Origin: a virus
Virus record (IMG/VR): IMGVR_UViG_3300005264_000003
Coordinates: 23,349 to 87,348 of that record
Direction: 5' to 3' (one strand)
Length of the DNA stretch: 64,000 bases
Of this stretch, positions 4,146-27,946 are shown piece after piece (position 1 is the first letter of the stretch; each line of letters opens with the position of its first letter). The notes beneath the pieces were generated by a model. It did no database searches and had not been told where the DNA came from. It was given only the letters and a program-made list of their open reading frames with translations. The position numbers and the translations under genes were made by a program.

Positions 4146-4176
4146 TATTGCTAACAAGCTGAATGCACTATCTCTT

Positions 4177-4224: not shown

Positions 4225-4250
4225 AAAACTTTATATAGGAGAAGCTAAGA

Positions 4251-7051: not shown

Positions 7052-7089
7052 TATGCTTATTAACACATACAACCTAAAAGGAGACAAAT

Positions 7090-7506: not shown

Positions 7507-8081
7507 TGTCAAAATATAAAATCTCTACCAGTGATTACACGATAGTATTTAACTCTATAAGTGCAGAGGATGCAGACAGGTATCACAGAATAATAAAGCA
7601 GACAGATAGCGCAGAGGCTGAAGAGATGTTATTCTTGTCAATAGTGGAAGATAAGAGCATTGACATAGAGTCACTCAATGCTGGCGTTATACCAACAGTG
7701 CTGTATTGCGCATTTCATATATCTGGATTTATAACTATAGATGAGTCTGTTCCAGACAACATAGAGAAGGCTAGAACTAGAATAGCAAGTAGCCTTTATC
7801 ATTCCTTACTGTATCCAGCTATAATAAAGACTCAGCCAGGGTATACATTAGATATGCTGCGGAGCAAAAGCTTAAATGACTTAATGGAACTATTCGCTTT
7901 AAGCGAGATAATCCTAGGCAAAGACATTGTCAATATCGAAGAAATGAGAAAAACTATTGCTGAAAGTAAACAAAATAAAGTTTCTCCATCTGCTGGCGGA
8001 ATTGCCGGAGTAACATCAGAAGAGCTTGACTTAGTTAAGTCAATGATTGAAGCGGAAGAATTTAATAGCGAGATATTCTAA
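7506..8081 (+). CDS. Putative tail assembly chaperone (paralog of upstream gene)
   Basis: TAATG translational coupling on both sides; shared AG-x-I...ISxF motif. Confidence 0.5.
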   Translation: MSKYKISTSDYTIVFNSISAEDADRYHRIIKQTDSAEAEEMLFLSIVEDKSIDIESLNAGVIPTVLYCAFHISGFITIDESVPDNIEKARTRIASSLYHSLLYPAIIKTQPGYTLDMLRSKSLNDLMELFALSEIILGKDIVNIEEMRKTIAESKQNKVSPSAGGIAGVTSEELDLVKSMIEAEEFNSEIF

Positions 8082-11000
8082 TGAGCAGTAAGCCAATAAA
8101 TCCTATAACATTTTCGGTAGATATAGAGGCTAATAATCTCCCCACTGACTTTCATATAGTGAGAGGCCTTGGGGAGCCCTTTAGGCTTCCTGACCTAAGC
8201 AAGATGGTGGATGGATTTGCAAACGTAGATATATATCAAATTGGATACATGGCCAATGGTGAAAAGAAGCATGTTGACGTAACTGAAACTACGTTTAAGC
8301 ATCCCGAGGTCTCTACGCCATTAAAGTATTCAGAAGAATATATAGACGCTGCTGGCAAGACGCGTTCGTTTAAGAGAGCTACTACAGTTACAGCATCAAG
8401 AGAAAGCTATGAGTCTCTATTCAAGTCTAGTGTAAATAAGATGAATGCTGCATCTACCGAGCAATATAGGAAAAAAGTACTGCCCTACTACTTACTGCAG
8501 GCTAGGAAGAATACTCAGTTCATGCTAGATAACGGTGGATCAATTGGTGCAATGCCTTTTGATGTATTCATAAAGCCATATGAAGAAATAAGAAGAATAG
8601 CTGAATCTCCTGAGAATGGGTTTAAGTATAGTCAAGTTACGCAAGCTAACTTTAGAGGTAAAGGTACAGACTCTCTCTATGAAGCAATAGATAATCTTGT
8701 CAGCTCAGCTAGCTCTAAGGATGCACCAGCTGTATTTAGATCATGGAACCCAGCATATGATGCGCCAGTTATACTGGCAGCACTACAGAAGTCGGGGCAT
8801 ACTGCTCTGGCAGACAAGTTTATTGCACAGCATAAGTCTGGACTATTAAAAATACAAGGCATAGAAGATGAGTGGCATGAAGTTTTATGGAAGTTAACTA
8901 AAGAGAATCCTGATATAGCAGATGATATAAGAGTAGGAATGCACCCAATAGCAGCAATTGCTACGGGTCGGCCTGGTGGCAAAGTAACTACGTATGGAGA
9001 ATTTAAGTACTCTACATATAGCTGGAAGCAAGAGGACATAGCTAAGCTTTTCAGGGGACATAAGAATTTTAGAGACATAGGCCATATAGCATCAACAGAT
9101 ATATTACAATCAGAAGAGCTTGCTAGTTTTATGCAGGCAGTAAAAGAAAGAGCTAGGAAAACTCTTGGACTTAAAGAGGCTACAGAAGCATTAAATCTAG
9201 AAGATACAGGCAATGCATTTACAGATGCCTTTAATGCTGAGATAGCTAAGACCTTTGGTGATAATGGCGCTACGACAGCAAGGGGAATGCTAAGAGAAGC
9301 AACTATAGATTCAAAGAGGAAGAATAAATTCTTTAGACAAAACTTTGGATCATGGTTTGCTGCTGACACATCTAAAAGAGCAAGAGCAAGCTGGACAAAA
9401 TATCCTGGAGTTATAGGAGCAGCAATTGCAGTAGCAGGAGCAACATATTTAGCTAATAGTGAAACGAAGACAAGTCTAGGCAGCGGTTTTTCAAGTATCA
9501 ATGGAGTTCCTATAGGCAAAGGCATTGGGTCAGGAATAGACAAGGACAGTCCTAATCTTGGCGCTAATATGGTTGGCGCTATGGCATCAGGCATTGTTGT
9601 GCCTGGAATAACAATGGCAGCTATTGGATACGGAGCAGCGCAAAGACATCCTATGCTGGGATATTCTCCATCTAAGCCTGAGACCTTTACGCAGGCCTGG
9701 AATCAAATTAAGAGTACGATAAGATATGGCATCAAGACTACAGAGGGTCAAGTATCTTTAGCTCGCGTATTCGAACTAGGAAGCTTAACAGATTATTTTT
9801 CTAGCAGTAGAACTTACTTGGCTGGAAAAGGCAAGAGTGGTAATTTGCCTAACGGAAAGCCTGGCAGGTACTATAAGTTTAATGTTATACAGACAAAGAA
9901 TGGCATAACAAGAGTACTTGATCAGAAATCACCAGGCCACGGCATGGACATGACTAAATTTATGCATGTACTCAAGCGGGATAATATATCTCAATATAAA
10001 AAACTAGACAGTATTCTTAATCCAAACATTAAAGATATGGCGCCTGAAAAGAGGCCTTACACAAGGCAAATAAGAATAGCATCCACAGTTGGCGGTGGAA
10101 CAAGAGTGCAGTGGGACGACTATGCCACTGAAAGCTTCGGCAAGGAAAACAGAATAACGAATTATTTATTAATAGATAAACATATAGGCATAAATAAACT
10201 ACGGGACGTAATACCGCAAGCTGCCAATCTGCATACTAGGCAGACTGATAAAAATAATTTGCGCAGCACGAATACAGCAGCCAGGGAAGCTGTTCATAGG
10301 GATATGTATAGATATGGCGGGTTTGCAAAAGATGAATACGAAGATTACATGGGCAGGCTTGTTAAGCCTGGATTTGCCAGAAGAAGCGAGCTTGGTAACA
10401 CTGCGTGGCGCGGAGCCGAGAAGTTAAGATGGATGTTAGATCTGAACTCGAAGAGTGTTGGTGAGGCTAACAATTTACTTATACCTAATGTAGCTGAGAC
10501 GCTTAATAGCACGAAGGCTGTAGTGCTAGTAAAGGATGCTAGATACTATGCTGATGTAATACCAAACTGGCTCATTGGTAGCATGGATAGATTCCTTGAA
10601 ACTCCATTTGAGTTCTTAGGAGTTGAGCATGGTAAAATAGAAGGGCTTGCTAATAAATTGAAAGCATCCCCCAACTTTACAACTAATACATTCGGTAAGG
10701 CATTATCTGCTATAGAGAAGCCTCACTTCGGATTAGGACTTGCAGCAAATGGTGGGTCTGCTTCTAGGTATCTGATGTCATTTGGACTCAAGAGAGTACT
10801 GCCTGCATACCTAGCTATAAACATGTTCTCGCTTACTGATCACTTACTAGGTGCAGCTACTATGTCTCCTACTGGAAGAGGACCTCTTACATCTGTTCCC
10901 ATAAAAGCATATGAGACAGCATCCTTGCTATATACTAAGATGTCCGATATTGTAGGGCTAACTGATTATGCAAAATGGCAAGCAGATGTTGCTCCTGGAT

Positions 11001-13936
11001 CTACGGGTATCGGAATATTCGCTCCCGCTGCGACAATGACTGCAACTTATTTTATGGGTGAGGTAGCATATAAGCATGGGCCAGATTTTATTGGCGGAGC
11101 AATAGACAAGGCTGCAAAGAAAGCAATTGAGCATCCATTCTTACAGAAAGCACTTAGAAAGGAATCATTTACTGGTGCAGTTTCTAGGGGGCCAGTGGAA
11201 AGGTTCATGTCTTATGCTATTAAGAATCCTAAAAAGGCTTTGTTTGGATTAGCAATGTTGCCTGCAATACCTTTTGTTCCAGGATTCCTCGGATCAGATA
11301 AAAACTATATGGAAAAAAAGGCTGAATACGATGGCGAAAAAGATGTTGCCATTAGAAAGTATCGTGGATGGCTATTATCTTCATCTCCATTTGAGGGCGG
11401 TAGAGTTAGATCGTTTCGTAGGCATGCTTTAAATTTGGTTGAGAGCGACTTTGAGAACAGAGGGGTAGTCTATCCTTCTTTCGCAGAAAGATTTGCTCAC
11501 AGCGCAACCCTAGGCCTCTACAAGCCTAATATGCTAGAGGAGTACCACAAGGAATCGCAGCCAGTATATAAATCTGCTCCATTCGGAGCAAACATTCCAT
11601 TACTTGGTCCTTTGATAGCCGGTACGTTGGGTCAAATAATTGGACAAAAAACATATCACGTTCCAGGAGAAACAGCAGGAGAGGGCGATGGAGTTGGATA
11701 TGATATGGGCATCGGACTAGAGCAGTCATTAAGTGATGGCGAGTCAAGAGCTATGATTGCTGGTGATGGTAGTACTGGATATATAATGGGCCTAGAAGAT
11801 CCTGCATCTTTAAACTCTATGGCTTCAAGATTTGCTGACACACTTTCTGATTTATCCGGTTTCCGTGGCTTTACAACAAAGACACTTTACAGTCGAGGAT
11901 CAGGAAAGTCGCTGCCAGATGATTACACACCATATGCGCAAGATGCAAGTCAAATGTATAGTCCCGCAGAGCAAATGTGGCAATACAATCTTGGTGACAT
12001 AACAGTAGTTGGTGGTGAGTTTTTACGTCGTGTATTACAAAATTCTGAGAAGAAGTGGCAAGTTAATGATATACCGAACGAGTTAATGGGAGTAAGCTGG
12101 ATACCGCAGAGTGATAATTATGGTAAAGACTTAACTCATGGCACCACTTTCGACAAGGTAGACATGGGTTGGCTTTACGGAGCTAGAAAAGGCTGGGAAT
12201 TTTTATACCCAGGAGAAGCTAATGGAGAAATGGAAACATATGGGGCTCCAGTAAGAACAGAAATATTGTCTCATATAGCACCTTACTCTAGACAGTATAA
12301 ACAAGAAGCAAAAAAGACATTAGACATGGCTCTTGACGATAGAATAGATCCAAGAAGAGAGCAGAGATTCTATGAGACTCTAGAACAAGTTTCTCAAGTT
12401 AAAGAACAGTTATATGCTACGGCAGGAGAATATACACATACAATAGATACAGAAAGTAGATCTGGTGTAGTGCAGTCAATGGATGAGTCAACTGGGTCAT
12501 TTATGATTAATAATACGCAGTATAGGCTGGCTGGGGTATCTACAAATGAGGCTGATATAAGATCAAGGCTATTGCAAAAAAAAGAATTTGAGAATGCTAG
12601 ACAACTAAGCGCTGAAGTGCAGAGAGTTCAGCTTCAAACAGCAGAGATAATGAGAAGCAATCTAGCTCCAGGCACGCATATAGACATGGACGTTGCTACA
12701 GCAGCAATGCTACCTAGTGCTACTAACCTGGGATATGAAGCGAGAATCAGCGGACTTTCAGAAAAGATGCTTGAGGCTGGTGCTGCTTTTGCTGATACCG
12801 GTAACATAGCAACACATAACATGGCGCAAGATAGACATGGTATGTTTAGTAAGCTACTAGCTTCGCATTGGGAAGGAATGACGTCAGTTAACTCGTATTG
12901 GAATAAGAAGCTTATATCTCAAAGAGACTATCTTGATAACTATACCACTAATCAAGTATTTAACCGAGAAGTAAAGCTTTGGACTAGGCCTATCGATCAC
13001 ATACTAAAGCCGTTTATTGCATCAACTATGCATAATTGGTTCGGGCTAGATGCGATACCTTCATTTACTAAGCAGCGCAGAGCTACTCAGCAGTATTGGG
13101 ATATATTAAAGTATATAAAATACAAAACACTATCTACTAAATCTAGGGCTGACGGAGATCTTGATTCAGCTACTTACTATGAAACTCAATGGAGAAGCAC
13201 TATGGTAGGTGCTGATCCAACCAATGAAAGCAAGAGAGACGAACTAATGGCTCTTCCTGGAAATGAGAGACAGTATTTTAATTACTTCTCAGCTGAATCA
13301 GATCCAGATAAAAGATCTGAAATATTTAAGTATTTACCAGAGCCAGCTAAGAGAATATATTCAAGCATATGGCTAAAGAAGATGGCAGAGACGTCGAGTA
13401 ACCAAGAAGTTCAAGCAGCTTGGGCAGGACTAAAATCATCTGAAGGCTGGAGTCTTTCAGAGGAAGAGGAAGCTGACTATATAAATGAAACTAATGGCAA
13501 TGTATCTAAGGGCGACTGGGCTAGAGCAAGATTTGTACAGCAATATGCTAGAGAAAATGATCTTCCTGGACCTGAGTGGTCAGGCTGGAACTCAAATGTA
13601 GATATAGATAACACACAACTGCTTTCATTAATGGAAGATGGAGAGAATGCGCAAGACTATGGATTTTTTGATAGTAAGATACGTAAAGCTCTATATGACG
13701 ATGATGCATATAAGGCAGCAACCGATATAGATTCGGCTAGTACCACTGCCAGCGTATTAATGGGAAGCGCACTTCCCTATTTAATGGAAGATAGCATGTC
13801 TTTATCTTACGCCGTGCCTGTAAGTATGTCTAGTCCTACTATTGAAATGAATATAGAGACTAATGGATTCAATAAAATATTAATGAGAATGAATGACTTA
13901 GGGTCATCACTACTTCCTGATGAATTCCTAGATTAA
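8081..13936 (+). CDS. Giant tape-measure-like/ejection protein with N-terminal DEDDh exonuclease and degenerate SNase domain
   Basis: ExoI SVDIE (D14,E16), ExoII WNPAYD (D227), ExoIII HIASTD (H335,D340); several Gly/Ala hydrophobic segments; 'YRLAGVSTNE' near aa 1481; occupies the tape-measure position after the chaperones. Confidence 0.65.
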   Translation: MSSKPINPITFSVDIEANNLPTDFHIVRGLGEPFRLPDLSKMVDGFANVDIYQIGYMANGEKKHVDVTETTFKHPEVSTPLKYSEEYIDAAGKTRSFKRATTVTASRESYESLFKSSVNKMNAASTEQYRKKVLPYYLLQARKNTQFMLDNGGSIGAMPFDVFIKPYEEIRRIAESPENGFKYSQVTQANFRGKGTDSLYEAIDNLVSSASSKDAPAVFRSWNPAYDAPVILAALQKSGHTALADKFIAQHKSGLLKIQGIEDEWHEVLWKLTKENPDIADDIRVGMHPIAAIATGRPGGKVTTYGEFKYSTYSWKQEDIAKLFRGHKNFRDIGHIASTDILQSEELASFMQAVKERARKTLGLKEATEALNLEDTGNAFTDAFNAEIAKTFGDNGATTARGMLREATIDSKRKNKFFRQNFGSWFAADTSKRARASWTKYPGVIGAAIAVAGATYLANSETKTSLGSGFSSINGVPIGKGIGSGIDKDSPNLGANMVGAMASGIVVPGITMAAIGYGAAQRHPMLGYSPSKPETFTQAWNQIKSTIRYGIKTTEGQVSLARVFELGSLTDYFSSSRTYLAGKGKSGNLPNGKPGRYYKFNVIQTKNGITRVLDQKSPGHGMDMTKFMHVLKRDNISQYKKLDSILNPNIKDMAPEKRPYTRQIRIASTVGGGTRVQWDDYATESFGKENRITNYLLIDKHIGINKLRDVIPQAANLHTRQTDKNNLRSTNTAAREAVHRDMYRYGGFAKDEYEDYMGRLVKPGFARRSELGNTAWRGAEKLRWMLDLNSKSVGEANNLLIPNVAETLNSTKAVVLVKDARYYADVIPNWLIGSMDRFLETPFEFLGVEHGKIEGLANKLKASPNFTTNTFGKALSAIEKPHFGLGLAANGGSASRYLMSFGLKRVLPAYLAINMFSLTDHLLGAATMSPTGRGPLTSVPIKAYETASLLYTKMSDIVGLTDYAKWQADVAPGSTGIGIFAPAATMTATYFMGEVAYKHGPDFIGGAIDKAAKKAIEHPFLQKALRKESFTGAVSRGPVERFMSYAIKNPKKALFGLAMLPAIPFVPGFLGSDKNYMEKKAEYDGEKDVAIRKYRGWLLSSSPFEGGRVRSFRRHALNLVESDFENRGVVYPSFAERFAHSATLGLYKPNMLEEYHKESQPVYKSAPFGANIPLLGPLIAGTLGQIIGQKTYHVPGETAGEGDGVGYDMGIGLEQSLSDGESRAMIAGDGSTGYIMGLEDPASLNSMASRFADTLSDLSGFRGFTTKTLYSRGSGKSLPDDYTPYAQDASQMYSPAEQMWQYNLGDITVVGGEFLRRVLQNSEKKWQVNDIPNELMGVSWIPQSDNYGKDLTHGTTFDKVDMGWLYGARKGWEFLYPGEANGEMETYGAPVRTEILSHIAPYSRQYKQEAKKTLDMALDDRIDPRREQRFYETLEQVSQVKEQLYATAGEYTHTIDTESRSGVVQSMDESTGSFMINNTQYRLAGVSTNEADIRSRLLQKKEFENARQLSAEVQRVQLQTAEIMRSNLAPGTHIDMDVATAAMLPSATNLGYEARISGLSEKMLEAGAAFADTGNIATHNMAQDRHGMFSKLLASHWEGMTSVNSYWNKKLISQRDYLDNYTTNQVFNREVKLWTRPIDHILKPFIASTMHNWFGLDAIPSFTKQRRATQQYWDILKYIKYKTLSTKSRADGDLDSATYYETQWRSTMVGADPTNESKRDELMALPGNERQYFNYFSAESDPDKRSEIFKYLPEPAKRIYSSIWLKKMAETSSNQEVQAAWAGLKSSEGWSLSEEEEADYINETNGNVSKGDWARARFVQQYARENDLPGPEWSGWNSNVDIDNTQLLSLMEDGENAQDYGFFDSKIRKALYDDDAYKAATDIDSASTTASVLMGSALPYLMEDSMSLSYAVPVSMSSPTIEMNIETNGFNKILMRMNDLGSSLLPDEFLD

Positions 13937-13946
13937 CGGAGAGCAT

Positions 13947-19337: not shown

Positions 19338-19347
19338 AGGTAAATAA

Positions 19348-22300
19348 ATGTCGATTACGAATGAAGAGTTAGTAGAAATCCTAAAAGAAGCTGACCTGTG
19401 GCCACCAGTTAAGAAAGCTCCGGCAACTAGCATTAAGAAAGTGCATTCAGTACCAGAAGGATTGGTTACATATCATAATAAAGTAATAACTAGCCTTGTT
19501 GTTGTCGATGGTGATACGATTGAAATCGTTGAGCCTGGCATTGAAGATAATGAGTCTATACGTTATTATGGAATTGATACAAATGAAACAGCCAAGGACT
19601 GGCTAGGCAAGCCAGAAGAAGATTATGCTAACTGGCAGACACAAGTACATGATGAGCTAATAAGATATGCTATAGACAAGAATCTTCATATAGAAATAAG
19701 TGATCACCTAGCAGGTTACTTCGGTCGTACTGTAGCTGATATACGAATAGACGGATCTAGTGTATCAGGAATATTCGTAGGAGCAGGCATTACTCCGCCC
19801 AGCATGGGGGCAGATACGAAAGTAGTTCCAGATACATCTATTACTAAAAATCAAATCATAGCAAACTATAACACTGCTATGCATAAGCGTTCTGGTATCT
19901 GGAAAAATGTTGGCGAGTATGTCTATCACCCCAATAACAATATTGACGAAAAACTTATAATTGACCTGTTTAATGATACATATTCTACTAAAAGAAAACT
20001 AGGTAAAGGCATAACTAAGATTGGTGACGTGTATCTAGATATACCTCCTACGCAAATAGCTATTACTCAACTCAGAACATCACGCTCTGTGCCTCAATTG
20101 GGCGGTGAATCAAAGCCTATTAGTGAAAACTCAGCTAGAACAATCATAAAACTTCACTTAGTGTTCTCAGGCGAGGAGACTATAAACACTGATCTGGTAA
20201 GAATTTTACAGCAATTTAGGTACTGTCCAATAAACCTGCTTTACTCTTTCGATATATTTGAGAAAGTTGTAGGCGATAATAAATATCTACTAGAAGGATA
20301 TGGTCAAGTAGATGATGAGTGGTTTATACCTGTAACAATGGATGAGTATACTATACATACAATTGAAGGTCATCCATCCTCGCTTGGATGTGTCTTACAG
20401 TTATCTTTATTTAACTATGCAGCATACTTTAATGGAGATATAGCAGAGAAAGTTCAGTATTACAAATATGAAATTGAAAGTGGAGAAGTCGACTCTAAGA
20501 GATCTTTAGCTGGTGTAAATAGAGACTTTGTATACACTTCACACCTAGAAGAAGCTGTGCATCCATATAATTTATATATAACTAGTCACTTAAAAGATAA
20601 GTTGCACATGTTTAATGGTTCAGATAGCTATACTGAGCTATTCAAGGTAGCAGGCACTAGAACTCCCCCTAACTATGAAGCAATTAGCGCTAAAGATGCA
20701 GGTAGGCTTTCTGATGAACTAGATGAGCTTTACTTGATACTTAGCTCTAGAGTTAAAGAATTAACAATGTCTACGAGTATCTTTTTTAGGAATAACTTTA
20801 CATGGCTGCCAGTTATTGGATACTCACAACCAGTTGCACAATACATAGGGCCTGGAGACTCTGTAGTTACACTCGAGTTGCAAACTGAGGACAACTCAGT
20901 TATATCTAGTTTATTAAATACATTCGGAGAAGAATCAACAACAAGTATTGTTGATACATTTTATGATGATAGATATATATTATCTAACTCACTTACCAGA
21001 TTGTGTGCTACTGAAGTCTGCAGTATGAAGAATTTTTCAATGTCTAATGTTAGTGGTCACCCAGATGCGTCAGTTATTAATATGGTATTTTGTAAGACAG
21101 CATATGCCACTACAGCAAATGAGGTTAATCCTGTTGCTGAGTTTGACGAGTACTGGGGTCTTCAGAGAATATTAAAATCACTAGACAAAGAAGACATGGA
21201 GGCAATTGAAACTGAACTCAAGAGCGATAGAGTTACAAGACTAGACATTGGCGACAGTGCTGACTCTTTCATTAGGCTGGCAGAGAGAAGCGGAAAGACT
21301 GATACGGAAAAGAAGGTAAATGAAAAAACAATAGCTGCTATGACAGTTGCTCTTAATAAGCTAAAGGGACATAAGAATTCCATGGAGTTTAATGCCCCTG
21401 AGTTTCATTTGCTTCAATTTAGAACTAACTTAAATTCAAGTATATTAAGTGCACGAATGAGCGGTTTGTCTGGAAAAATTATTCTTCTAGATGGATTGAG
21501 CATGTATTCAAGAATGACGGTGTCTCAATTCCCTGCTAATAAAACACTAGATCAGCTTAATCTTAATGCGAATAAGGCATATAAGACTTACTATGGTGGA
21601 ATGCTTAGTTCTTATCCTCGCAGCCGGGTTGCCAAAGAGATGACTAGAAACTTCAGAGATGCCTTAGGCGGACACGGAGAAGCATCTAGGATATTAAGAG
21701 CTTATGTTAGTAAGGTATACGCAGGCGGATGGCTTACTAGTGATATAACAGGACCGCCAGTAAGCTTACTAGATTTAAGCGAGAAGCTGCATGAAGAATA
21801 CCTTAATCCTAGCTATAGTAATGACTATGTAAATAGAATTAACACTCATGGCACCTATAATGGACATGGATGGGATCTTTCTGATTACGATAGATGGATG
21901 GGTAAGCTGGTTGACAAGTTATGTCATGCAATTGAAGCTAAGTCAACTGGATTGCTTTCTAAGTTTAAAGAGAGGTGGAATGAGCAGTCTCTCCTAGAAA
22001 GCAAGGGATACTCTGTTATAATGAAGTTCGTTGGCACTGCAATAGAGGCTAGAGTTATTAAGACTGCTTTTATTTTAGGTAGCAGAGACGCTAATAGGAA
22101 AGAAGAAGTGTCTGAGGCAAGAGAATATTTCCATACCCCAAGGAATATATCGTACCCTTCATTTTCAGTTATATATAATGCAGATGATGGTACAGAAGGA
22201 ACTGATTTAATACTAACAGATAGTGATGCTAATGGAGAGTCTAAAAATTGGACATTTCAGGTAACATTTTTTCCTTCTGAGCACAATGAGGGCATTAGTA

Positions 22301-25300
22301 GATATTGGCACGAGGAGCCAGACTCTGAAGCTGCATCTGAAGCTGAGCTCGAAGAAGCTAGAGCAAAAATGGATGTAGTGTCACATGGCAATATAGTTAT
22401 ACCTTATGCTGGACATAGGTATTTCCCTAACATAGACTTATACCTGAAGCATCAAGAGATATTCTCTACTACCGTAGGGGAATGGTTTGCTAATAAATAT
22501 ATAGAGGACCCATATAAGATTTTCGAGCAAGTATCTGAATCAGTAGAGCAGTCTATAGCTCCACTAATGGATAGGCCGGCATGGGAAGCTACATACATTG
22601 AAAGAAGTCATGGTGTTGCATTTGCTAACAAGATAGCAGAAGACCCACATGATCCATGTAAGTTAGTTGCAGCTATTAACTGGATGAGTTTTGGTAAAGA
22701 TTTCAGTGAAGACAATCGAGACACAGCCTTATTAAAAGGCAAGCCTAATAGCACAGTAGATCGCTGGATAAATAAATGCATACCAGATATGATTCTTAGT
22801 AGCGAAGATGGTAGCCCTAAAGATCTCGACGTTCCTTTTAGTACTGTTCATCAGTGTGCTGCCCTTAGTAGTGGCTACTATGACTCGGCTAAGTTTCAAG
22901 GAAAAGAGATAGTTGCATTTAGAATGAATGTAATGAGTAAGACAAGTATGTCTCTCAATACAGCAGGACAAACATCTAGGGGATATAATCTTCAAAACAA
23001 GATGTGTGCTATAGAGTCAGATGGTGCACTATACTTGCCTTCAGATGTGCCTGAAGCTTCACTTGCTGGCAGCATAGATGATTCAGCTAAGTTCATTCAT
23101 TCTCCAGCAGACACGCAAATACACTACGGAGGCAACTATGCAAATGGGTGTGACTTGACATTATTGCAAAAGCACCCAGAGGGATTCGCAAAGGAGCTAG
23201 GGCGAGAACAACCTGCATTACAAGCGCTGGGTCAGAAAGATGGATTAAATACAATTGAAGCTGACGCAATGCTTAGGGAAAAATTCTATAAGATATTACT
23301 AAAAAGCAACAGTAAAGGTGCCGAGTTCAGTAAGTCGCCAGCACAACTAAGGGGTATAGCTAAGAGTCACGTAAGTACACTTAAAGACTCTATTGCTCCA
23401 GCTACAAATATTTACTATATGACAGAGAAGCTAATAGTAGATTATCTAAGCAACGGAGTAACGTCTGAACTAAAGGCTGATTTAAAAATAATAGTATCAA
23501 AGTACATAGCAGACTTTGGCCCCTTAATAGATGATGCGACAAAAGAGTTGGTATCTAGAAATGCTCTTGAATCTATGATGCCTACTATTGGGATAGAAAA
23601 TGCATTTCCTACATATAAAATGTATATAATTGAAGAAGACATGTCTGATATAAGATACTTCTCAATGGATGATTGGTATGATCTTAGGACAGCTCAAGAC
23701 TTGATGATTGTAAAGTCTAAAGACAATCCAGCACATATGCTTAAAGGTAGAATTATAGTAGATCATAGATATATAATTACTAGCGACAAAGTGAACCAGA
23801 AAGTTTCTGATATTAGCAATCCTCAGGAATTTGAAGTTGAGGCACCAGCACCGGGGATTGTTGATACTAGGGCTGAAAACCATTTCAATAAAGGAATGAC
23901 TCCGTTACGAGAAGGTATGAGAATTTGCATTAAACTAGGCTACCACTCTGACCCAAGAGCTATGGACACAGTCTTTATTGGTACGATTACAGGACTTAGT
24001 GGCAACATGAGTACTGGCGTATATGACCTAGAGGCTAGAGGTGATGGTAGAGAGCTACTAACTCCTCCGTCACAAGATGTAAAGCCTAATATCTCAGGAG
24101 AGAATTTTGCTGAGATTATATCTATTATGATGAGAAATAGCCCTGCTGTTATGCACTTTGGAAGAACATATGGTTCATTTTTAGAGAAATTCTCAAGAAG
24201 GCACTGGGCGCTATTTGCACTTGCTAAGCACGGAAGACTATCTAAGTCTCATGTTTTTGGAGCCGTAGGTATGTCAATGGGACTAGCTGCAAGATCAGCA
24301 ATCAGGCAGGCAGCCATGAAAGGATCTCTTTCTGAGGAAACTGGCATGGGCATGTGGGCGTACATGATTCATTCATTTAGTCGAAAGACTATGTCTGTAT
24401 ATGAAGAAACAACAGCCTTGTATAACAATACGCTTTTGCCTTTATCTGACAAAGGATCCCATGAGAGATGGGCTGCATATAGTAATAATATATTTGACGG
24501 CGATGATGGTAAATGGGGTATCTTTAGCTCAGAGTTTGGTAACGCAAAGTTCTCTCAAGTAAAGGGCTGGTTAGCAGGAAATACATTTGATCCAAGAAAG
24601 GCTAGTGCTCAAACTGCCGGCATACTATATAATACATTCAAGCAAGGCAATAATCCTATTGATGATAACATATTCGCTATTGATATTTGGAATACTTTTG
24701 TTCCATGGCGCACATTTGACATGCCAATCAATAACACAAGAACTATTTGGGATGTGCTTGTTGATATTAAGAGAATGTATCCAAACTTTGCACTTGACGT
24801 AAGACCGTATGGGTCTAGATCTACGCTATTTATGGGGCCTAAGGAGTTTAATATATGGAGAACTGACGACCCACTACAAGCAGTTGCTCCTCAGTTAGCC
24901 GAGATAACTACCAATGAGGCATCATGGGATGATAGTTTTAGCTATAACTTATCAGCTAAAGATGCCCTTAGGTCACAGGTTATATTGGATAGATTTGGTG
25001 ACCGGAAGCCATCAGAAAACAATGTAGCAGGATGGGTGCCATTTCAAAGGCAGCATACGGTATCTTCTTTCAGTGACATAGTAATGAATGGCATCCGATC
25101 TACTCCTTATAGAGGATGGAATAACGTCGTAGTAACGTATTCAAAAGGCCCTGGCGATAACGAGAGTAGGGCTCCTATTATGCAGTCTGCCAATGCAAAC
25201 TTAGATCCAAAAGCTATTAGAACAAAATATGCTAATATAGACTGGACAGATGATCCGCAAATGGCCAAGCAGTATGCCATTGGACTACTCAAAGAGGGCG

Positions 25301-26706
25301 TTGAGAGAATGTACGGCGGTACGTTAATCATAAGAGGTAACTCTAAGATAGAGCCGCATGATAAAGTATTTATATGTGACGCAGTTAATAAGATGTATGG
25401 ATGGATAGAAGTAGAAACAGTGATACATAAATTTGATCTAAGTATGGGCTTTACAACTCATATAGTACCAAACATGGTATGCTCTGTAAATAACGACTCT
25501 TATAGTACTTTTAGTAATGTATTTAGAAGACAAATGGTTGAAAAGTGGGGGACATTAATCTTAGGCTATGCCGGTGGCGCTGCTGTTGGATATGGAGTAG
25601 CAGGATTAATTGGTCCAATAGGATGGGTAGCAAGCGCTGTGGTTTCAACGGCAGCATTAAGTATAAGTGTTGCTGGTGCATATCGAGAAATAAAAAGCAA
25701 AGCAGAGTCTATAATGGATGCAGCTGAAGCCGAAGGCAAGGCCAGGAAAGAAGAGAGACTCTTGTCTGACAGACTAAATTTCATGTTTCTATCAGACGCT
25801 GTAAAACACGGATATGACAGAGGAATAGCGGCTCATTACCTATTAAGATTGTTAGGTGAAGATGGCCTAGGTATAAAAGCAAGAGACATAAGAATGCCTA
25901 AGCTAGCAGGAAAGAGGGCGATTAAGAAGGGCGTTGATATTGCAGCGGAAAGATGGGCTTTTGCATCAAAGTTTATTGGTGGATTTAGAGATGAGTACAA
26001 GGTAGGCAAAGCCATTAAGAAGCAAGCTTTATTTGATAGTATTGCAAAGGATGTTGGCAGAACAATTGACTGGGATGCTATTGATGCTGCACCAACATTA
26101 ACAGATGCGAGAGTTAAGTTAGAGGCTGAATTAAATAGCTTAATAGAAAAAGCTTCAGAGGAGCTATCTGACGATGCAAAGAAGACGATAACAAGATCGC
26201 TAGGCAGGGACTTTGGCGATGCTCTCGTGCCCAGGGATACTATCTCAAGAGCAGAGAGTTCTTCAGCAGGTGCGTTAAAGAGCACTAAAGCTAAGCTGTT
26301 AAAAAAGGTTAAAAAAGTTCGAGTAACGAAAGGCCTTAAGGCGGCAGGAGGCTTTGGGTTATCTGTTTTTGCAATAGGAGCAGACATGGCTCCAGCGCTA
26401 GTGGAAACATTTGTAGTTAATGCTATGTTAAACTCAAATACAATAATATGTCATCCGCTATACAGTAAGCATGGTATGCTTATGAATGGATTAGATGGAT
26501 ACCAAAACAAGACATCATATAAGCATCTTAAGGGTATGATAGTTCAAGCTGAAGGCTATGTTAATAAGGCTAAAGAGGCGCTTAGTGAATGGGATCACAT
26601 GTTCAACTTGAGCAATGGAGCGACACCTATGAGTGAAGACGCAGCAGCGCAACTAAGAGCTTCTGCTATTAACTTGAATGAGGATACAGGAGTAGGAGAT
26701 GAGTGA
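19348..26706 (+). CDS. Giant baseplate hub (gp27/gpD-like) fused to N-terminal thermonuclease (SNase) domain
   Basis: SNase motifs DGDT, IRYYGIDTNE, YFGR, RSGIW; hub motifs 'GMRICIKLGY..VFIGTI' and 'GTLIIRGNSKIEPHDKV..EVETVIHKF..GFTTHI'. Confidence 0.75.
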   Translation: MSITNEELVEILKEADLWPPVKKAPATSIKKVHSVPEGLVTYHNKVITSLVVVDGDTIEIVEPGIEDNESIRYYGIDTNETAKDWLGKPEEDYANWQTQVHDELIRYAIDKNLHIEISDHLAGYFGRTVADIRIDGSSVSGIFVGAGITPPSMGADTKVVPDTSITKNQIIANYNTAMHKRSGIWKNVGEYVYHPNNNIDEKLIIDLFNDTYSTKRKLGKGITKIGDVYLDIPPTQIAITQLRTSRSVPQLGGESKPISENSARTIIKLHLVFSGEETINTDLVRILQQFRYCPINLLYSFDIFEKVVGDNKYLLEGYGQVDDEWFIPVTMDEYTIHTIEGHPSSLGCVLQLSLFNYAAYFNGDIAEKVQYYKYEIESGEVDSKRSLAGVNRDFVYTSHLEEAVHPYNLYITSHLKDKLHMFNGSDSYTELFKVAGTRTPPNYEAISAKDAGRLSDELDELYLILSSRVKELTMSTSIFFRNNFTWLPVIGYSQPVAQYIGPGDSVVTLELQTEDNSVISSLLNTFGEESTTSIVDTFYDDRYILSNSLTRLCATEVCSMKNFSMSNVSGHPDASVINMVFCKTAYATTANEVNPVAEFDEYWGLQRILKSLDKEDMEAIETELKSDRVTRLDIGDSADSFIRLAERSGKTDTEKKVNEKTIAAMTVALNKLKGHKNSMEFNAPEFHLLQFRTNLNSSILSARMSGLSGKIILLDGLSMYSRMTVSQFPANKTLDQLNLNANKAYKTYYGGMLSSYPRSRVAKEMTRNFRDALGGHGEASRILRAYVSKVYAGGWLTSDITGPPVSLLDLSEKLHEEYLNPSYSNDYVNRINTHGTYNGHGWDLSDYDRWMGKLVDKLCHAIEAKSTGLLSKFKERWNEQSLLESKGYSVIMKFVGTAIEARVIKTAFILGSRDANRKEEVSEAREYFHTPRNISYPSFSVIYNADDGTEGTDLILTDSDANGESKNWTFQVTFFPSEHNEGISRYWHEEPDSEAASEAELEEARAKMDVVSHGNIVIPYAGHRYFPNIDLYLKHQEIFSTTVGEWFANKYIEDPYKIFEQVSESVEQSIAPLMDRPAWEATYIERSHGVAFANKIAEDPHDPCKLVAAINWMSFGKDFSEDNRDTALLKGKPNSTVDRWINKCIPDMILSSEDGSPKDLDVPFSTVHQCAALSSGYYDSAKFQGKEIVAFRMNVMSKTSMSLNTAGQTSRGYNLQNKMCAIESDGALYLPSDVPEASLAGSIDDSAKFIHSPADTQIHYGGNYANGCDLTLLQKHPEGFAKELGREQPALQALGQKDGLNTIEADAMLREKFYKILLKSNSKGAEFSKSPAQLRGIAKSHVSTLKDSIAPATNIYYMTEKLIVDYLSNGVTSELKADLKIIVSKYIADFGPLIDDATKELVSRNALESMMPTIGIENAFPTYKMYIIEEDMSDIRYFSMDDWYDLRTAQDLMIVKSKDNPAHMLKGRIIVDHRYIITSDKVNQKVSDISNPQEFEVEAPAPGIVDTRAENHFNKGMTPLREGMRICIKLGYHSDPRAMDTVFIGTITGLSGNMSTGVYDLEARGDGRELLTPPSQDVKPNISGENFAEIISIMMRNSPAVMHFGRTYGSFLEKFSRRHWALFALAKHGRLSKSHVFGAVGMSMGLAARSAIRQAAMKGSLSEETGMGMWAYMIHSFSRKTMSVYEETTALYNNTLLPLSDKGSHERWAAYSNNIFDGDDGKWGIFSSEFGNAKFSQVKGWLAGNTFDPRKASAQTAGILYNTFKQGNNPIDDNIFAIDIWNTFVPWRTFDMPINNTRTIWDVLVDIKRMYPNFALDVRPYGSRSTLFMGPKEFNIWRTDDPLQAVAPQLAEITTNEASWDDSFSYNLSAKDALRSQVILDRFGDRKPSENNVAGWVPFQRQHTVSSFSDIVMNGIRSTPYRGWNNVVVTYSKGPGDNESRAPIMQSANANLDPKAIRTKYANIDWTDDPQMAKQYAIGLLKEGVERMYGGTLIIRGNSKIEPHDKVFICDAVNKMYGWIEVETVIHKFDLSMGFTTHIVPNMVCSVNNDSYSTFSNVFRRQMVEKWGTLILGYAGGAAVGYGVAGLIGPIGWVASAVVSTAALSISVAGAYREIKSKAESIMDAAEAEGKARKEERLLSDRLNFMFLSDAVKHGYDRGIAAHYLLRLLGEDGLGIKARDIRMPKLAGKRAIKKGVDIAAERWAFASKFIGGFRDEYKVGKAIKKQALFDSIAKDVGRTIDWDAIDAAPTLTDARVKLEAELNSLIEKASEELSDDAKKTITRSLGRDFGDALVPRDTISRAESSSAGALKSTKAKLLKKVKKVRVTKGLKAAGGFGLSVFAIGADMAPALVETFVVNAMLNSNTIICHPLYSKHGMLMNGLDGYQNKTSYKHLKGMIVQAEGYVNKAKEALSEWDHMFNLSNGATPMSEDAAAQLRASAINLNEDTGVGDE

Positions 26707-27076: not shown

Positions 27077-27087
27077 CAGGAGTTAAT

Positions 27088-27486: not shown

Positions 27487-27515
27487 GTTATTAACAGATA
27501 TCTGGAGAATATAAA

Positions 27516-27917: not shown

Positions 27918-27946
27918 AATATAAATATATTAAACTTGGAGAAAAA

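What the first reader, a model, noticed from the sequence alone, without database searches (positions are those of the whole stretch)
8081..26706. Three-gene enzymatic cargo cassette: exonuclease-TMP, RNAP and nuclease-hub
Seen: three consecutive, tightly spaced giant ORFs (1951, 1796, 2452 aa; 18.6 kb) replace the usual single helical tape measure plus small hub. Each has a nucleic-acid enzyme domain (DEDDh exonuclease plus degenerate SNase; two-barrel RNAP; SNase) and Gly/Ala-rich membrane-like helices. Inference: a co-ejected machine that forms the membrane channel, transcribes or pulls in early DNA, and processes or degrades nucleic acid on entry, combining features of podovirus/crAss ejection proteins with evolved-VgrG-style effector fusion.
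Basis: inference. Interest (0 to 1): 0.85.

Follow-up and report, generated by a model that had tools for sequence, protein, structure and literature searches.

The report
Tail-gene trio with hidden RNA polymerase
Three huge neighbouring tail genes of an uncultured giant contractile-tailed phage carry a likely RNA polymerase core and two nucleases, so the phage probably sends its own transcription enzyme through its tail, a strategy demonstrated so far only in one unrelated heat-loving phage.

Summary
The three ORFs exist exactly as described. They sit in a myovirus tail operon between sheath/tube/two small chaperone-position genes and Baseplate_J.

- **Lineage:** the trio is the conserved gp145-gp146-gp147 block of the Bacillus phage 0305phi8-36 lineage. 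It recurs in 5 of 5 related IMG/VR loci with enough downstream DNA.
- **ORF3:** a hub-family protein with a real N-terminal staphylococcal-nuclease domain.
- **ORF2:** carries an invariant R-x-P...D-x-D-G-D signature. Its best PDB, Pfam and PHROG matches, all weak, are RNA polymerase catalytic barrels.
- **ORF1:** its DEDDh exonuclease rests on invariant canonical motifs only; HMMs do not see it. Its "degenerate SNase" is not supported. Nothing marks it as the tape measure.

The closest precedent is the tape-measure-fused virion RNAP of Thermus phage P23-45 (PMC10770324). Ejection and activity are inferred. This scan has noted the same layout before on other DNA. Verdict: real; a new variant of a known kind.

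The parts
754..3462 (+). tail sheath (902 aa), start of the tail block
   Evidence: phrog_16991 'tail sheath', E 5.4e-17. The same position and size is seen in 5 related loci.
3522..5567 (+). tail tube (207 aa) and tube paralog (438 aa)
   Evidence: Both match phrog_9206 (2.7e-27 and 2.6e-18). The PHROG label is 'major head protein', but the 0305phi8-36 record notes gp140/gp141 as tail tube and tube paralog.
7090..8081 (+). two small genes (138 and 191 aa) in the tail-chaperone position, the second overlapping the ORF1 start
   Evidence: Position only. There are no Pfam or PHROG matches. They are positional equivalents of 0305phi8-36 gp143/gp144 and WH1 gp098/gp097 'tail chaperonin'. They are present in 6 of the 7 related loci (L008-L013); the remote locus L014 differs.
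8081..13936 (+). ORF1, 1951 aa: gp145-family giant virion protein
   Evidence: Coordinates. It has 30 homologs, mostly 1940-2016 aa. The family HMM matches 0305phi8-36 gp145 at 8.5e-42, WH1 gp096 at 7.6e-49 and Moorella CDS0026 at 5.7e-46.
8081..9115 (+). ORF1 N-terminal DEDDh (DnaQ-like) exonuclease candidate. ExoI is D14/E16 at 8120-8128, ExoII is WNPAYD at 8744-8761, ExoIII is H335..D340 at 9083-9100.
   Evidence: D14, E16, H335 and D340 are invariant in 29/29. W222 and N223 are conserved in at least 90% of members. The family consensus is LDxETT / WNPxFD / HxAGxD. The evidence is motif-level only: PF00929 does not match, and hhalign aligns only ExoI above shuffles.
11234..11296 (+). ORF1 conserved hydrophobic segment (residues 1052-1072). 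A second, weaker one lies at 9569-9628 (residues 497-516).
   Evidence: Hydropathy scan. Conserved in 31/31 and 22/29 homologs respectively.
13947..19337 (+). ORF2, 1796 aa: tape-measure-slot giant with an RNA-polymerase-like core
   Evidence: Coordinates. The family is rare: 20 representatives with E <= 0.001 among 1.84 billion proteins. It sits in the middle position in 5/5 syntenic loci.
17754..17951 (+). beta-prime-type (DPBB-A) catalytic barrel. R1281-x-P1283 lies at 17787-17795 and D1319-H-D-G-D1323 at 17901-17915.
   Evidence: Invariant in 15/15. Top PDB hits are AR9 beta' and phiKZ gp55 (E 0.064-0.07; 0.013-0.037), plus yeast Pol I RPA1 at 0.19. The ORF2 HMM matches the same barrel of WH1 gp095, which is the only PF00623 match in the WH1 genome (E 5.4e-4).
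18162..18332 (+). conserved blocks T1406-K-x-x-T-G1411 and E-Q-x-x-I-[SG]-S-K (about 1452-1462): candidate bridge helix and start of the trigger loop
   Evidence: K, T, G and K are invariant in 7/7 diverse loci including WH1 and in 13-15 of 15 members. Their placement after DPBB-A is as in single-chain RNAPs. The assignment itself is inference.
19011..19067 (+). ORF2 C-terminal hydrophobic Gly/Ala-rich segment (residues 1689-1707). A weaker N-terminal one lies at 13983-14039.
   Evidence: Hydropathy scan. Conserved in 14/15 (C-terminal) and 5/13 (N-terminal).
19348..26706 (+). ORF3, 2452 aa: hyperplastic baseplate-hub-family protein
   Evidence: Coordinates. It has 22 homologs. The family HMM matches 0305phi8-36 gp147 at 1.8e-23, WH1 gp094 at 6.3e-37 and Moorella CDS0032 at 4.2e-20. 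tblastn hits the ME3 'baseplate hub protein'.
19558..19908 (+). staphylococcal-nuclease (SNase) domain, ORF3 residues 71-187
   Evidence: PF00565 at 24.9 bits (over the cut-off), E 1.4e-6, and the only match on the contig. The profile matches 1ii3_A at E 1.9e-7 with DGDT, R, D and E columns aligned. phrog_452 'endonuclease' at 1.9e-6.
23500..25518 (+). conserved hub core (residues about 1385-2057)
   Evidence: This region matches hub or baseplate-annotated proteins of ME3, KLEB27-3, WH1 and Edson and phrog_20474/phrog_8809. It is the densest block of near-invariant columns. The gp27 relationship comes from Hardies 2007 through gp147 and was not shown directly here.
25555..26418 (+). ORF3 C-terminal hydrophobic segments (residues 2070-2112 and 2338-2357)
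   Evidence: Hydropathy scan. Conserved in 20/20 and 17/21 homologs.
26699..29161 (+). three small genes (125, 147 and 133 aa), then Baseplate_J (404 aa): the downstream boundary of the cassette
   Evidence: PF04865 Baseplate_J at 2.7e-16 and phrog_6 at 2.1e-29. The small genes have no informative family match. They are positional equivalents of 0305phi8-36 gp148-gp150.

Best explanation
The block is the tail-core cassette of an uncultured jumbo myovirus of the 0305phi8-36-like lineage. It has three parts:
- ORF1, a gp145-family giant virion protein.
- ORF2, a fast-evolving giant in the tape-measure slot.
- ORF3, a gp147-type hyperplastic baseplate hub.

In this phage the middle protein carries the catalytic core of a single-chain two-barrel RNA polymerase. 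ORF1 carries an N-terminal DnaQ-type 3'-5' exonuclease, and the hub carries an N-terminal Ca-type staphylococcal nuclease.

Proposed mechanism (inferred, by analogy with P23-45 gp96):
1. ORF1 and ORF2 are loaded into the tail-tube lumen with the help of the two upstream chaperone-position proteins and are anchored to the hub.
2. On sheath contraction they are expelled.
3. Their conserved hydrophobic helices enter the envelope.
4. The ORF2 polymerase transcribes the first DNA to enter, independently of the host polymerase.
5. The hub-borne SNase acts outside the cytoplasm, at the cell surface or periplasm.
6. The role of the ORF1 exonuclease is open.

Shown: gene order, homology, conserved motifs and the SNase domain. 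Inferred: virion location in this phage, ejection, polymerase activity, and which protein sets tail length.
For: CONTEXT AND SYNTENY:
- The gene order is sheath, tube, tube paralog, two small genes, the three giants, then Baseplate_J.
- The same order occurs in 0305phi8-36, WH1 and Moorella MTATph1.
- It also occurs in 5/5 IMG/VR loci with enough downstream DNA. A sixth locus is cut at the start of ORF2.
- ORF1 and ORF3 are orthologs of gp145 and gp147.

RNAP CORE:
- DxDGD is present in 19 of 22 family sequences. The 3 without it are fragments outside the site.
- R-x-P and D-x-D-G-D are invariant in 15/15. These are 5 of the 8 residues that Ruprich-Robert & Thuriaux list as invariant in all two-barrel RNAPs.
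- The top 3 PDB hits of the 21-sequence profile are jumbo-phage beta' subunits.
- In an independent 7-locus profile, 4 of the top 5 PDB hits are RNAP catalytic barrels.
- PF00623 is matched by 2/21 members, best E 0.055. It also matches 1/5 relatives' contigs exactly at the motif.
- In WH1 the only PF00623 match in 230 kb is the homologous barrel of gp095, E 5.4e-4.
- The only PHROG matched by the family is 'RNA polymerase beta subunit' (2/21 members).
- The Atlas lead also points to Rpb1_2 clusters (score 0.77, weak).

CONTEXT OF OTHER POLYMERASES:
- No other RNAP family (PF00623 elsewhere, PF00562, PF05183, PF00940) is found in the CheckV-complete relative G005 or in WH1.
- 0305phi8-36, whose middle giant lacks DxDxD, has a YonO/RdRP-type RNAP.

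VIRION PRECEDENT:
- The 0305phi8-36 record marks gp145 and gp146 as detected by mass spectrometry.
- WH1 gp094-096 are deposited as 'virion structural protein'.
- P23-45 gp96 is a tape measure whose N-terminal part is an active virion RNAP. It was recognised from its conserved DFDGD alone.

NUCLEASES AND HELICES.
Against:
- Every RNAP match is below curated or conventional significance: best whole-PDB E 0.013, and Pfam scores of 12.7-17.4 bits against a cut-off of 25.3.
- PF00623 does not match the window's own contig at E <= 10.
- No beta-type barrel was detected: PF00562 gave 0/5 and none at E <= 1 in 21 members. The Asp plus two basic residues of the second barrel could not be assigned; K672/R681 and E513 are guesses.
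- P23-45 gp96, phi14:2 gp66 and QDE-1 chains did not appear among PDB hits at E <= 10.
- The ORF1 exonuclease is invisible to PF00929 in this contig and in 5/5 relatives.
- None of the three shows the helix-rich composition of a classical tape measure, by a crude measure.
- 0305phi8-36 gp146, in the same slot, has no polymerase signature and no detectable similarity to ORF2. So the slot does not imply the function.
- There are no virion data for this phage. The contig is only about 42% of a genome.
Confidence: 0.6

Rival explanations
1. Purely structural tail proteins. The three giants are only tape-measure, tube-lumen and hub components, and the polymerase-like and exonuclease-like motifs are relics or metal-binding structural sites without catalysis.
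For: - The same slots in 0305phi8-36 were read as an unnamed virion protein, the tape measure and the hub.
- 0305phi8-36 gp146 has no DxDxD.
- All RNAP matches are sub-threshold.
- PF00929 finds nothing in ORF1.
Against: - Strict invariance of R-x-P...D-x-D-G-D at about 24% overall identity, and of D14, E16, H335 and D340 in a poorly conserved N-terminus, argues for selection on catalysis.
- The sequence around the motif aligns with real RNAP barrels over 50-75 residues.
- The SNase reaches Pfam's cut-off with its catalytic columns present.
Confidence: 0.15
2. ORF2 is a two-barrel enzyme but not an early-gene transcriptase. It might act as an RNA-dependent or primer-making polymerase (QDE-1 or PolD style), or use nucleic-acid binding to help draw DNA in. 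The nucleases would serve anti-defence or host-takeover rather than transcription.
For: - Two-barrel enzymes include RNA-dependent RNAPs and archaeal PolD.
- An exonuclease travels with the polymerase-like protein. It is fused to it in WH1 at motif level. It sits in the middle giant of the Moorella phage (PF00929, 24.2-25.5 bits). It is on ORF1 here.
- One ORF1 homolog carries an inserted restriction-endonuclease-like domain (PF18741, 3e-22).
Against: - The best matches are DNA-dependent phage beta' subunits.
- The only experimentally studied tail-slot case is a transcriptase.
- No PF05183 (RdRP) match is found in the relatives.
Confidence: 0.15
3. The enzymes are made from the tail operon but are not delivered into the cell. 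The SNase and exonuclease would act at the virion tip, on extracellular DNA or during assembly, and the polymerase-like protein would be removed or processed before maturation.
For: - SNase-type enzymes are typically extracellular and Ca-dependent (general knowledge).
- The hub family carries other envelope-acting domains such as SLT, glucosaminidase, NlpC/P60 and M23.
- No virion data exist for this phage.
Against: - Homologs gp145 and gp146 are recorded as mass-spectrometry-detected virion proteins.
- Conserved membrane-like helices occur in all three.
- Tube-lumen proteins of long-tailed phages leave through the tail (as stated in PMC10770324).
Confidence: 0.1

Closest known systems
Thermus phage P23-45 gp96 (also P74-26, G20c, TSP4): tape-measure-fused virion two-barrel RNAP (Chaban et al. 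2024, PMC10770324; abstract and sections 6, 11, 12, 13 read)
   Same: - A giant protein in the tape-measure position.
- It was recognisable as an RNAP only through a conserved R-x-P...DFDGD-type barrel.
- It has membrane segments in the same polypeptide.
- It is proposed to pass through the tail and transcribe the first genes.
   Different: - P23-45 is a siphovirus with an 800-nm non-contractile tail, and gp96 is 5002 aa and helix-rich.
- Here the tail is contractile, the protein is 1796 aa, and the polymerase core is central or C-terminal rather than N-terminal.
- Here it is flanked by two further giants.
- No sequence similarity to gp96 beyond the motif was detectable.
Bacillus phage 0305phi8-36 gp145-gp146-gp147 (Hardies et al. 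2007, PMC2147016, passages read; record NC_009760)
   Same: - Identical gene order: sheath, tube, tube paralog, two-gene chaperonin, three giants, gpV-like, gpJ-like.
- ORF1 and ORF3 are clear homologs of gp145 and gp147.
- The hub has exchangeable enzyme domains.
   Different: - gp146 was called the tape measure and has no DxDxD and no similarity to ORF2.
- That phage has a separate YonO/RdRP-type RNAP, orf99.
- The passages I read do not mention an exonuclease or a nuclease in the trio. gp147 carries cell-wall hydrolases rather than SNase.
Bacillus phage vB_BceM_WH1 gp096-gp095-gp094 (record LC597490; no paper found)
   Same: - Same trio and order.
- gp095 carries the homologous barrel (RYP...ADHDGD) and the only PF00623 match in its genome.
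- All three are deposited as virion structural proteins.
   Different: - gp095 is 2515 aa.
- The DEDDh-like motifs sit at the N-terminus of the polymerase-like protein itself, not on the ORF1 homolog.
- The host is a Firmicute.
crAss-like phage phi14:2 gp66 with neighbouring cargo proteins, and N4-type virion RNAP with its ejection proteins
   Same: A giant virion-packaged RNAP encoded next to other large virion proteins and delivered with the DNA.
   Different: - These are podoviruses whose polymerases are carried in the head.
- N4 vRNAP is T7-like rather than two-barrel.
- No sequence match to gp66 was obtained here.
phiKZ / AR9 jumbo-phage multisubunit RNAPs (beta' N-terminal subunits, PDB 7ogp_A, 7s00_d, 7s01_d)
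   Same: These are the best PDB matches of the ORF2 barrel, in register at R-x-P and DxDGD.
   Different: - These are split multisubunit enzymes encoded outside the tail module.
- The similarity is limited to about 50-75 residues, at E 0.013-0.07.
T4 gp27-gp5 hub and 'evolved' VgrG spikes with fused effectors
   Same: A central baseplate or spike protein that carries an enzyme domain to the cell envelope.
   Different: - No direct match to gp27 or VgrG chains came up in the PDB profile search.
- The link to gp27 comes through Hardies 2007's gp147 analysis.
- The fused domain here is a nuclease, not a lysozyme or toxin.

Membership tests
Two-barrel (multisubunit-type) RNA polymerases | DPBB-A (beta-prime-type) barrel with invariant Arg, Pro and the D-x-D-x-D metal triad | tested here: met
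   R1281, P1283, D1319, D1321 and D1323 are invariant in 15/15. DxDGD is in 19 of 22 sequences; the 3 misses are fragments outside the site. The region aligns in register with AR9, phiKZ and Pol I barrels. The residue list is from PMC2919709.
Two-barrel (multisubunit-type) RNA polymerases | Second barrel (DPBB-B, beta-type) supplying an Asp and two basic residues | tested here: inconclusive
   PF00562 matched 0 of 5 records at E <= 5 and no member at E <= 1. The invariant E513, K672, R681, K730 and E909 exist upstream but could not be assigned. Chaban et al. state that such families share no detectable similarity beyond the DxDxD region.
Two-barrel (multisubunit-type) RNA polymerases | Bridge helix and trigger loop after DPBB-A | tested here: inconclusive
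   The conserved blocks TKAxTG (+87) and EQxxISSKH (+135) are invariant at K, T, G and K in 7/7 loci. The order fits, but no alignment to a known bridge helix was obtained.
Two-barrel (multisubunit-type) RNA polymerases | Profile match above a curated threshold | tested here: not met
   PF00623 found no match on the own contig at E <= 10. Best results: member E 0.055; WH1 gp095 at 17.4 bits and G001 at 12.7 bits against a cut-off of 25.3.
Two-barrel (multisubunit-type) RNA polymerases | Double-psi beta-barrel fold and polymerase activity | not testable with these tools
Activity needs an experiment.
DEDDh (DnaQ-like) 3'-5' exonucleases | ExoI D-x-E, ExoII N-x-x-F/Y-D and ExoIII H-x-A-x-x-D in order | tested here: met
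   D14, E16, H335 and D340 are invariant in 29/29. W222 and N223 are conserved in at least 90%. The consensus is LDxETT / WNPxFD / HxAGxD. The motif definitions are recalled, not from a call. ExoI and ExoII are about 210 residues apart, which is unusually far.
DEDDh (DnaQ-like) 3'-5' exonucleases | Profile-level match to the family (PF00929 or solved structures) | tested here: not met
   PF00929 found no match on the contig or in 5/5 relatives. No Pfam or PHROG exonuclease family came up in 24 members. There was no PDB hit. hhalign to the Pfam-positive Moorella domain aligns only the ExoI motif (25.1 against a shuffled maximum of 15.6).
Staphylococcal nuclease (SNase, PF00565) | Profile match over Pfam's cut-off covering the domain | tested here: met
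   24.9 bits against a cut-off of 21, profile positions 2-107 of 107. By plain hmmscan it scored 18.9 bits, E 0.0022. The family profile matches 1ii3_A at E 1.9e-7 over chain residues 11-145.
Staphylococcal nuclease (SNase, PF00565) | Ca-binding and catalytic residues (DGDT, Arg, D-T-x-E, second Arg) | tested here: met
   ORF3 has DGDT...R-Y-Y-G-I-D-T-N-E...F-G-R. These fall in the conserved columns DGDT / RxxGxDxxE of A4, which align with the corresponding SNase residues. 6 of 21 family members keep DGDT.
Tail tape measure protein | Gene directly downstream of the tail-chaperone pair; long, helix-rich; length proportional to tail length | tested here: inconclusive
   ORF1 follows the chaperone-position genes and ORF2 comes second. 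In 0305phi8-36 the second gene was assigned as the tape measure by tail length. None of ORF1-3 shows gp96-like helix bias, by a crude propensity measure. The tail length of this phage is unknown.
Baseplate hub (T4 gp27 / P2 gpD type) | Homology to hub proteins and position upstream of the spike, gp25-like and gpJ genes | tested here: met
   HMM matches to 0305phi8-36 gp147 (1.8e-23), WH1 gp094 and Moorella CDS0032. tblastn matches the ME3 'baseplate hub protein' and the KLEB27-3 'putative baseplate protein'. Baseplate_J lies 1.2 kb downstream.
Baseplate hub (T4 gp27 / P2 gpD type) | Direct profile match to gp27, gpD or VgrG | tested here: not met
   There are no such chains among the 28 PDB hits of the family profile at E <= 10, and no Pfam hub family at E <= 0.1. 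The gp27 link rests on Hardies 2007's HHsearch of gp147.

The most novel reading that the evidence does not exclude
A whole lineage of contractile-tailed jumbo phages, spanning uncultured relatives (two homologs bear Tenuifilaceae MAG names) and Bacillus phages, stores a single-chain RNA polymerase together with a proofreading-type exonuclease inside the tail lumen. It fires them through the tube ahead of the DNA. The tape-measure slot is therefore an enzyme-delivery slot. This tail-borne polymerase is functionally interchangeable with a separately encoded YonO-type polymerase: 0305phi8-36 has YonO and no barrel, while WH1 and G005 have the barrel and no YonO. The recurring polymerase-exonuclease pairing, fused in WH1 and split here, would be a new functional unit, for example 3'-end trimming or cleavage coupled to transcription start on incoming DNA.
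Probability: 0.3. Interest if true: 0.8.

Novelty: new variant of a known kind. Interest (0 to 1): 0.62.

Why it matters
**What it would change if true.** Delivery of a cell-type RNA polymerase through the tail would not be a curiosity of one Thermus siphovirus. It would be a recurrent strategy of large contractile-tailed phages. These phages would start infection independently of host RNA polymerase without phiKZ-style head-packaged enzymes.

**Effect on annotation.** It would reassign the 'hypothetical tape measure' slot of a described phage lineage. It would define a very diverged RNAP family: 20 representatives among 1.84 billion proteins, with no Pfam or PHROG family of its own.

**New questions it opens.** It puts two nucleases on the same delivery apparatus. 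That makes concrete questions testable in a cultured relative, Bacillus phage WH1:
- How does a protein of about 1800 residues pass a roughly 4-nm tube and refold?
- What sets tail length?
- What is a DnaQ-type exonuclease doing next to a polymerase?

**What I could not check.** The supplements of Chaban et al. (23 RNAP families; survey of viral genomes) may already list this family.

Tried and rejected
**Searches that gave nothing**
- Pfam and PHROG scans of the three proteins themselves found nothing for ORF1 and ORF2.
- phmmer against PDB found nothing meaningful for any of the three.
- tblastn of ORF2 against 50,697 phage records found no match.
- A viral-contig scan with ORF2 alone found no match.
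- The ORF1 family profile against PDB gave only a myosin coiled coil at E 2.2.
- The Atlas search of ORF1 residues 850-1900 gave no usable hit.
- Per-member PHROG scans of ORF1 found only one unknown family in 1/24 members.

**Ideas I dropped**
- 'The hub's N-terminal slot swaps between SNase and wall hydrolases', which I inferred from precomputed Pfam labels. A family SNase sub-HMM finds the N-terminal domain in 14 of 22 homologs at E < 1e-4, and the SLT domain is a separate, optional C-terminal module that ORF3 lacks.
- 'ORF1 is the tape measure'. Nothing supports it (see the observation check).
- Positional orthology of ORF2 with 0305phi8-36 gp146 could not be shown. C-terminal hhalign scored 17.0 against a shuffled maximum of 16.1. 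WH1 gp095 is weakly above shuffles, 23.9 against 15.9.

**Caveats on negative or crude tests**
- The Chou-Fasman-type composition profile is crude and decides nothing.
- PF00940 found nothing, but no control genome rang either, so that negative result is weak.

- Complex prediction, the look-up of sequencing runs, read laying, fold search and the RNA tools were not used.
- Literature searches on whether a tail-slot two-barrel RNAP in myoviruses is in print. Only the P23-45 paper holds both 'two-barrel' and 'tape measure'.
- Iyer et al. 2021 (passages) list DPBB RNAPs only for group 1 jumbo phages and YonO-like enzymes.

Full report
**Observation.** The window holds three consecutive + strand ORFs at 8081-13936 (1951 aa), 13947-19337 (1796 aa) and 19348-26706 (2452 aa) (translations). 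The spacers between them are 10 nt, each with a GGAG or GAGG site in front of the ATG. The gene upstream overlaps the ORF1 start. No other frame over the block is open for more than 305 aa. Promoter-like and terminator-like sites inside the block are no more frequent than in shuffled sequence (60 vs 59.6; 9 vs 10.6). The three are therefore real genes of one operon.

**Context.** The window is the last 64 kb of an 87,348-bp virus contig that CheckV rates as 42% complete. By inference the genome is roughly 200 kb.
- Upstream lie a large terminase, the portal and the major capsid protein.
- Next come a 902-aa tail sheath, a tube protein and a tube paralog, a 493-aa protein, and two small genes with no family match.
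- Downstream of the trio are three small genes and Baseplate_J (PF04865, 2.7e-16).

This is the tail-core region of a contractile-tailed phage. Two homologous proteins bear names of a Tenuifilaceae MAG, which is only a hint about the host.

**The trio is an old, conserved block.** tblastn linked ORF1 and ORF3 to jumbo myoviruses: Bacillus WH1 and Edson, Moorella MTATph1, Acinetobacter ME3 and Bacillus KLEB27-3.
- In WH1 the order is sheath, two tube-like proteins, one further gene, two 'tail chaperonins', gp096 (2025 aa), gp095 (2515 aa), gp094 (2320 aa), and then baseplate J.
- Bacillus phage 0305phi8-36 has the same order with gp145, gp146 and gp147.
- Family HMMs built here match gp145, WH1 gp096 and Moorella CDS0026 at 8.5e-42 to 7.6e-49. 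They match gp147, gp094 and CDS0032 at 4.2e-20 to 6.3e-37.
- Hardies et al. [quoted passage not shown] They also described a 'hyperplastic' gp27-type hub, orf147, with exchangeable wall-degrading domains.
- The 0305phi8-36 record notes gp145 and gp146 as detected in virions by mass spectrometry.
- A scan of IMG/VR with the ORF1 family gave 7 loci. All 5 with enough downstream DNA have ORF1-like, then ORF2-like, then ORF3-like genes behind the same sheath, tube, tube-paralog and two-small-gene block. A sixth breaks off at the start of the ORF2-like gene. The seventh, a remote GC-rich contig, has only an ORF1-like gene.

The layout does not 'replace' a usual one: it is the norm of this lineage.

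**ORF2, the polymerase claim.** The protein has no Pfam, PHROG or PDB match by itself and no relative among 50,697 phage records by tblastn. An exhaustive HMMER search of 1.84 billion representatives with residues 500-1699 found 20 proteins at E <= 0.001.

Motif conservation:
- Of 22 family sequences examined (including P0004 and WH1 gp095), 19 have D-x-D-G-D. The 3 without it are fragments that do not span the site.
- In an alignment of 15 full-length members at about 24% identity, R1281, P1283, D1319, D1321, G1322 and D1323 are invariant.
- Arg, Pro and the three Asp are five of the eight residues that Ruprich-Robert & Thuriaux list as invariant in all two-barrel RNAPs (PMC2919709, passages).

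Profile evidence is weak but consistent:
- The 21-sequence profile's top three PDB hits are phiKZ gp55 and AR9 beta' (E 0.064-0.07). They align in register over R-x-P...DxDGD.
- An independent 7-locus profile of the barrel region gives AR9 beta' at 0.013 and 0.014, phiKZ gp55 at 0.037 and yeast Pol I RPA1 at 0.19 among its top five.
- PF00623 is touched by 2/21 members, best E 0.055.
- The only PHROG touched by any member is 'RNA polymerase beta subunit' (2/21 members, best E 0.0019).
- The Atlas lead (score 0.77, weak) points to viral Rpb1_2 clusters.
- The ORF2 HMM matches WH1 gp095 at its RYP...ADHDGD region. That region is the only PF00623 match in the 230-kb WH1 genome (E 5.4e-4, 17.4 bits, below the cut-off).
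- One of five metagenomic relatives also gives a PF00623 match exactly at the motif (E 0.0028).
- After the barrel come two conserved blocks, TKAxTG and EQxxISSKH. They sit where single-chain RNAPs have the bridge helix and the start of the trigger loop (PMC10770324 section 11). This assignment is inference.

Evidence against, or missing:
- PF00623 does not match the own contig.
- No beta-type barrel is detectable.
- The Asp and basic residues of the second barrel cannot be assigned among the invariant charged residues.

Chaban et al. note that P23-45 gp96 too was recognisable only by its conserved DFDGD. They add that RNAP families share little beyond that region. The evidence here is therefore of the kind that preceded their experimental proof.

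**The slot does not always hold a polymerase.** 0305phi8-36 gp146 has no DxDxD and no similarity to ORF2. That phage has a YonO/RdRP-type RNAP elsewhere (PF05183, 1.1e-20). WH1 and the CheckV-complete relative G005 (206,638 bp) have the barrel in the middle giant. Neither shows PF05183, PF00562 or PF00940, nor PF00623 elsewhere. The PF00940 negative is weak, because no control rang. With n = 3 this complementary pattern is only a lead. In the Moorella phage the middle giant is split by an IS21 element (transposase plus IstB, 1.9e-82) and shows no DxDxD.

**ORF1.** It has thirty homologs, most of them 1940-2016 aa.
- The N-terminal 345 residues are poorly conserved except for D14, E16, H335 and D340 (29/29) and W222-N223 (at least 90%). 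The family consensus is LDxETT, WNPxFD, HxAGxD. These are the three DnaQ-type motifs in order, by motif definitions I recall, with an unusually long ExoI-ExoII spacer.
- No profile sees the domain: PF00929 on the contig and in 5/5 relatives; Pfam and PHROGs on 24 members; PDB.
- hhalign to the Moorella phage's Pfam-positive RNase_T domain (24.2-25.5 bits) aligns only ExoI above shuffles.
- Among 12 reference giants, an ordered ExoI-II-III trio occurs only in WH1 gp095 (N-terminus) and in the Moorella middle giant. So the exonuclease module recurs in the cassette but sits on different proteins.
- The C-terminal 1100 residues are densely conserved, with many invariant Trp, Gly, Pro and Arg. They have no known relative.
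- One homolog has a restriction-endonuclease-like insert (PF18741, 3e-22, residues 1277-1369).
- Nothing identifies ORF1 as the tape measure.

**ORF3.**
- The SNase domain is real. PF00565 scores 24.9 bits (cut-off 21) at residues 71-187 and is the sole match on the contig. The family profile matches staphylococcal nuclease at E 1.9e-7 over nearly the whole chain. The DGDT, R, D-T-x-E and G-R positions are present.
- A sub-HMM shows the N-terminal domain in 14 of 22 homologs at E < 1e-4 and in the loci L008, L011 and L012. DGDT is kept in 6 of 21 aligned members.
- Ten homologs add a C-terminal SLT-type module that ORF3 lacks.
- The hub core (about residues 1385-2057) matches hub or baseplate-annotated proteins. 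It does not match gp27 or VgrG chains directly.

**Membrane-like helices.** Hydrophobic Gly/Ala-rich segments are conserved in all three families, and absent from control segments.

**Mechanism and comparison.** The best-supported reading is a tail-core cassette whose middle, tape-measure-slot protein carries a single-chain RNAP core delivered through the tail. This follows the example of P23-45 gp96, where the virion location, activity and pre-early transcription were demonstrated (PMC10770324). Alongside it are a hub-borne SNase acting at the envelope and an ORF1 exonuclease of open function. It differs from P23-45 in tail type, in size, in the position of the core within the protein, in the two flanking giants and in the nucleases.

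**Prior art.** I found no paper describing a two-barrel RNAP in the tail module of contractile-tailed phages (searches; Iyer et al. 2021 passages). The supplements of Chaban et al. could not be seen. This scan has noted the same layout on other DNA: 164 notes in at least 121 genomes hold the polymerase/tape-measure search words, and 18 notes in at least 16 genomes hold the trio search words. One of them is a relative that shares 15 of 180 sequence words with ORF1. Those are AI notes and I count them as agreement, not evidence.

**Verdict.** This is a new variant of a known kind. Confidence is 0.6 in the delivered-RNAP reading, and interest is 0.62.

Noticed in passing
window 40395-41243 (+): A 282-aa Cas4/RecB-like exonuclease gene (phrog_1706 'CRISPR/Cas system associated', 9.9e-19; phrog_1990 'Cas4-domain exonuclease', 3.5e-8) sits among large baseplate and fibre genes. 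This is another nuclease in the virion module.
   Followed up: no
window 3522-5567; L007 1318-3660: phrog_9206 is labelled 'major head protein', but its members here are the tail tube and its paralog. This looks like a propagated mislabel.
   Followed up: partly
L004 15513-22869 (Moorella phage MTATph1): The middle giant of the trio is interrupted by an IS21-type element (transposase plus IstB, PF01695, 1.9e-82), leaving a 1309-aa piece with an RNase_T domain and a 313-aa remnant. The phage is described as a complete genome, so the slot may tolerate disruption there.
   Followed up: partly
L010 9977-16432 (P0045): One ORF1 homolog (2151 aa) has a Vsr/restriction-endonuclease-like domain (PF18741, 3e-22; DUF559) inserted at residues 1277-1369, in the family's variable linker. 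It keeps the N-terminal ExoI motif.
   Followed up: partly
0305phi8-36 (W03 209484-211547) vs WH1 and G005: There is a complementary pattern. The phage with a YonO/RdRP-type RNAP lacks DxDxD in its middle giant. The two genomes with the barrel lack PF05183. With n = 3 this is a lead only.
   Followed up: partly
L001 6153-9071 (contig 6153-9071): The large terminase is 972 aa. Besides the terminase match (phrog_2, 1.7e-19, residues 545-874), it has an N-terminal part that hits helicase-like and unknown PHROGs. This is an unusually long terminase.
   Followed up: no
window 29163-32027 (+): A 954-aa protein right after Baseplate_J has five FG-GAP repeats (PF14312, 2.5e-37).
   Followed up: no
L014 4370-10618: A GC-rich 211-kb viral contig has a remote ORF1-like giant (2082 aa, HMM E 1.7e-27) that starts with a hydrophobic segment, but no ORF2-like or ORF3-like neighbours by HMM. 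The gp145 family therefore reaches beyond the trio.
   Followed up: no
window 13937-13946 and 19338-19347: Clear Shine-Dalgarno-like GGAG and GAGG sites precede ORF2 and ORF3. This is worth weighing against a Bacteroidota host, a phylum that I recall uses such sites little.
   Followed up: no
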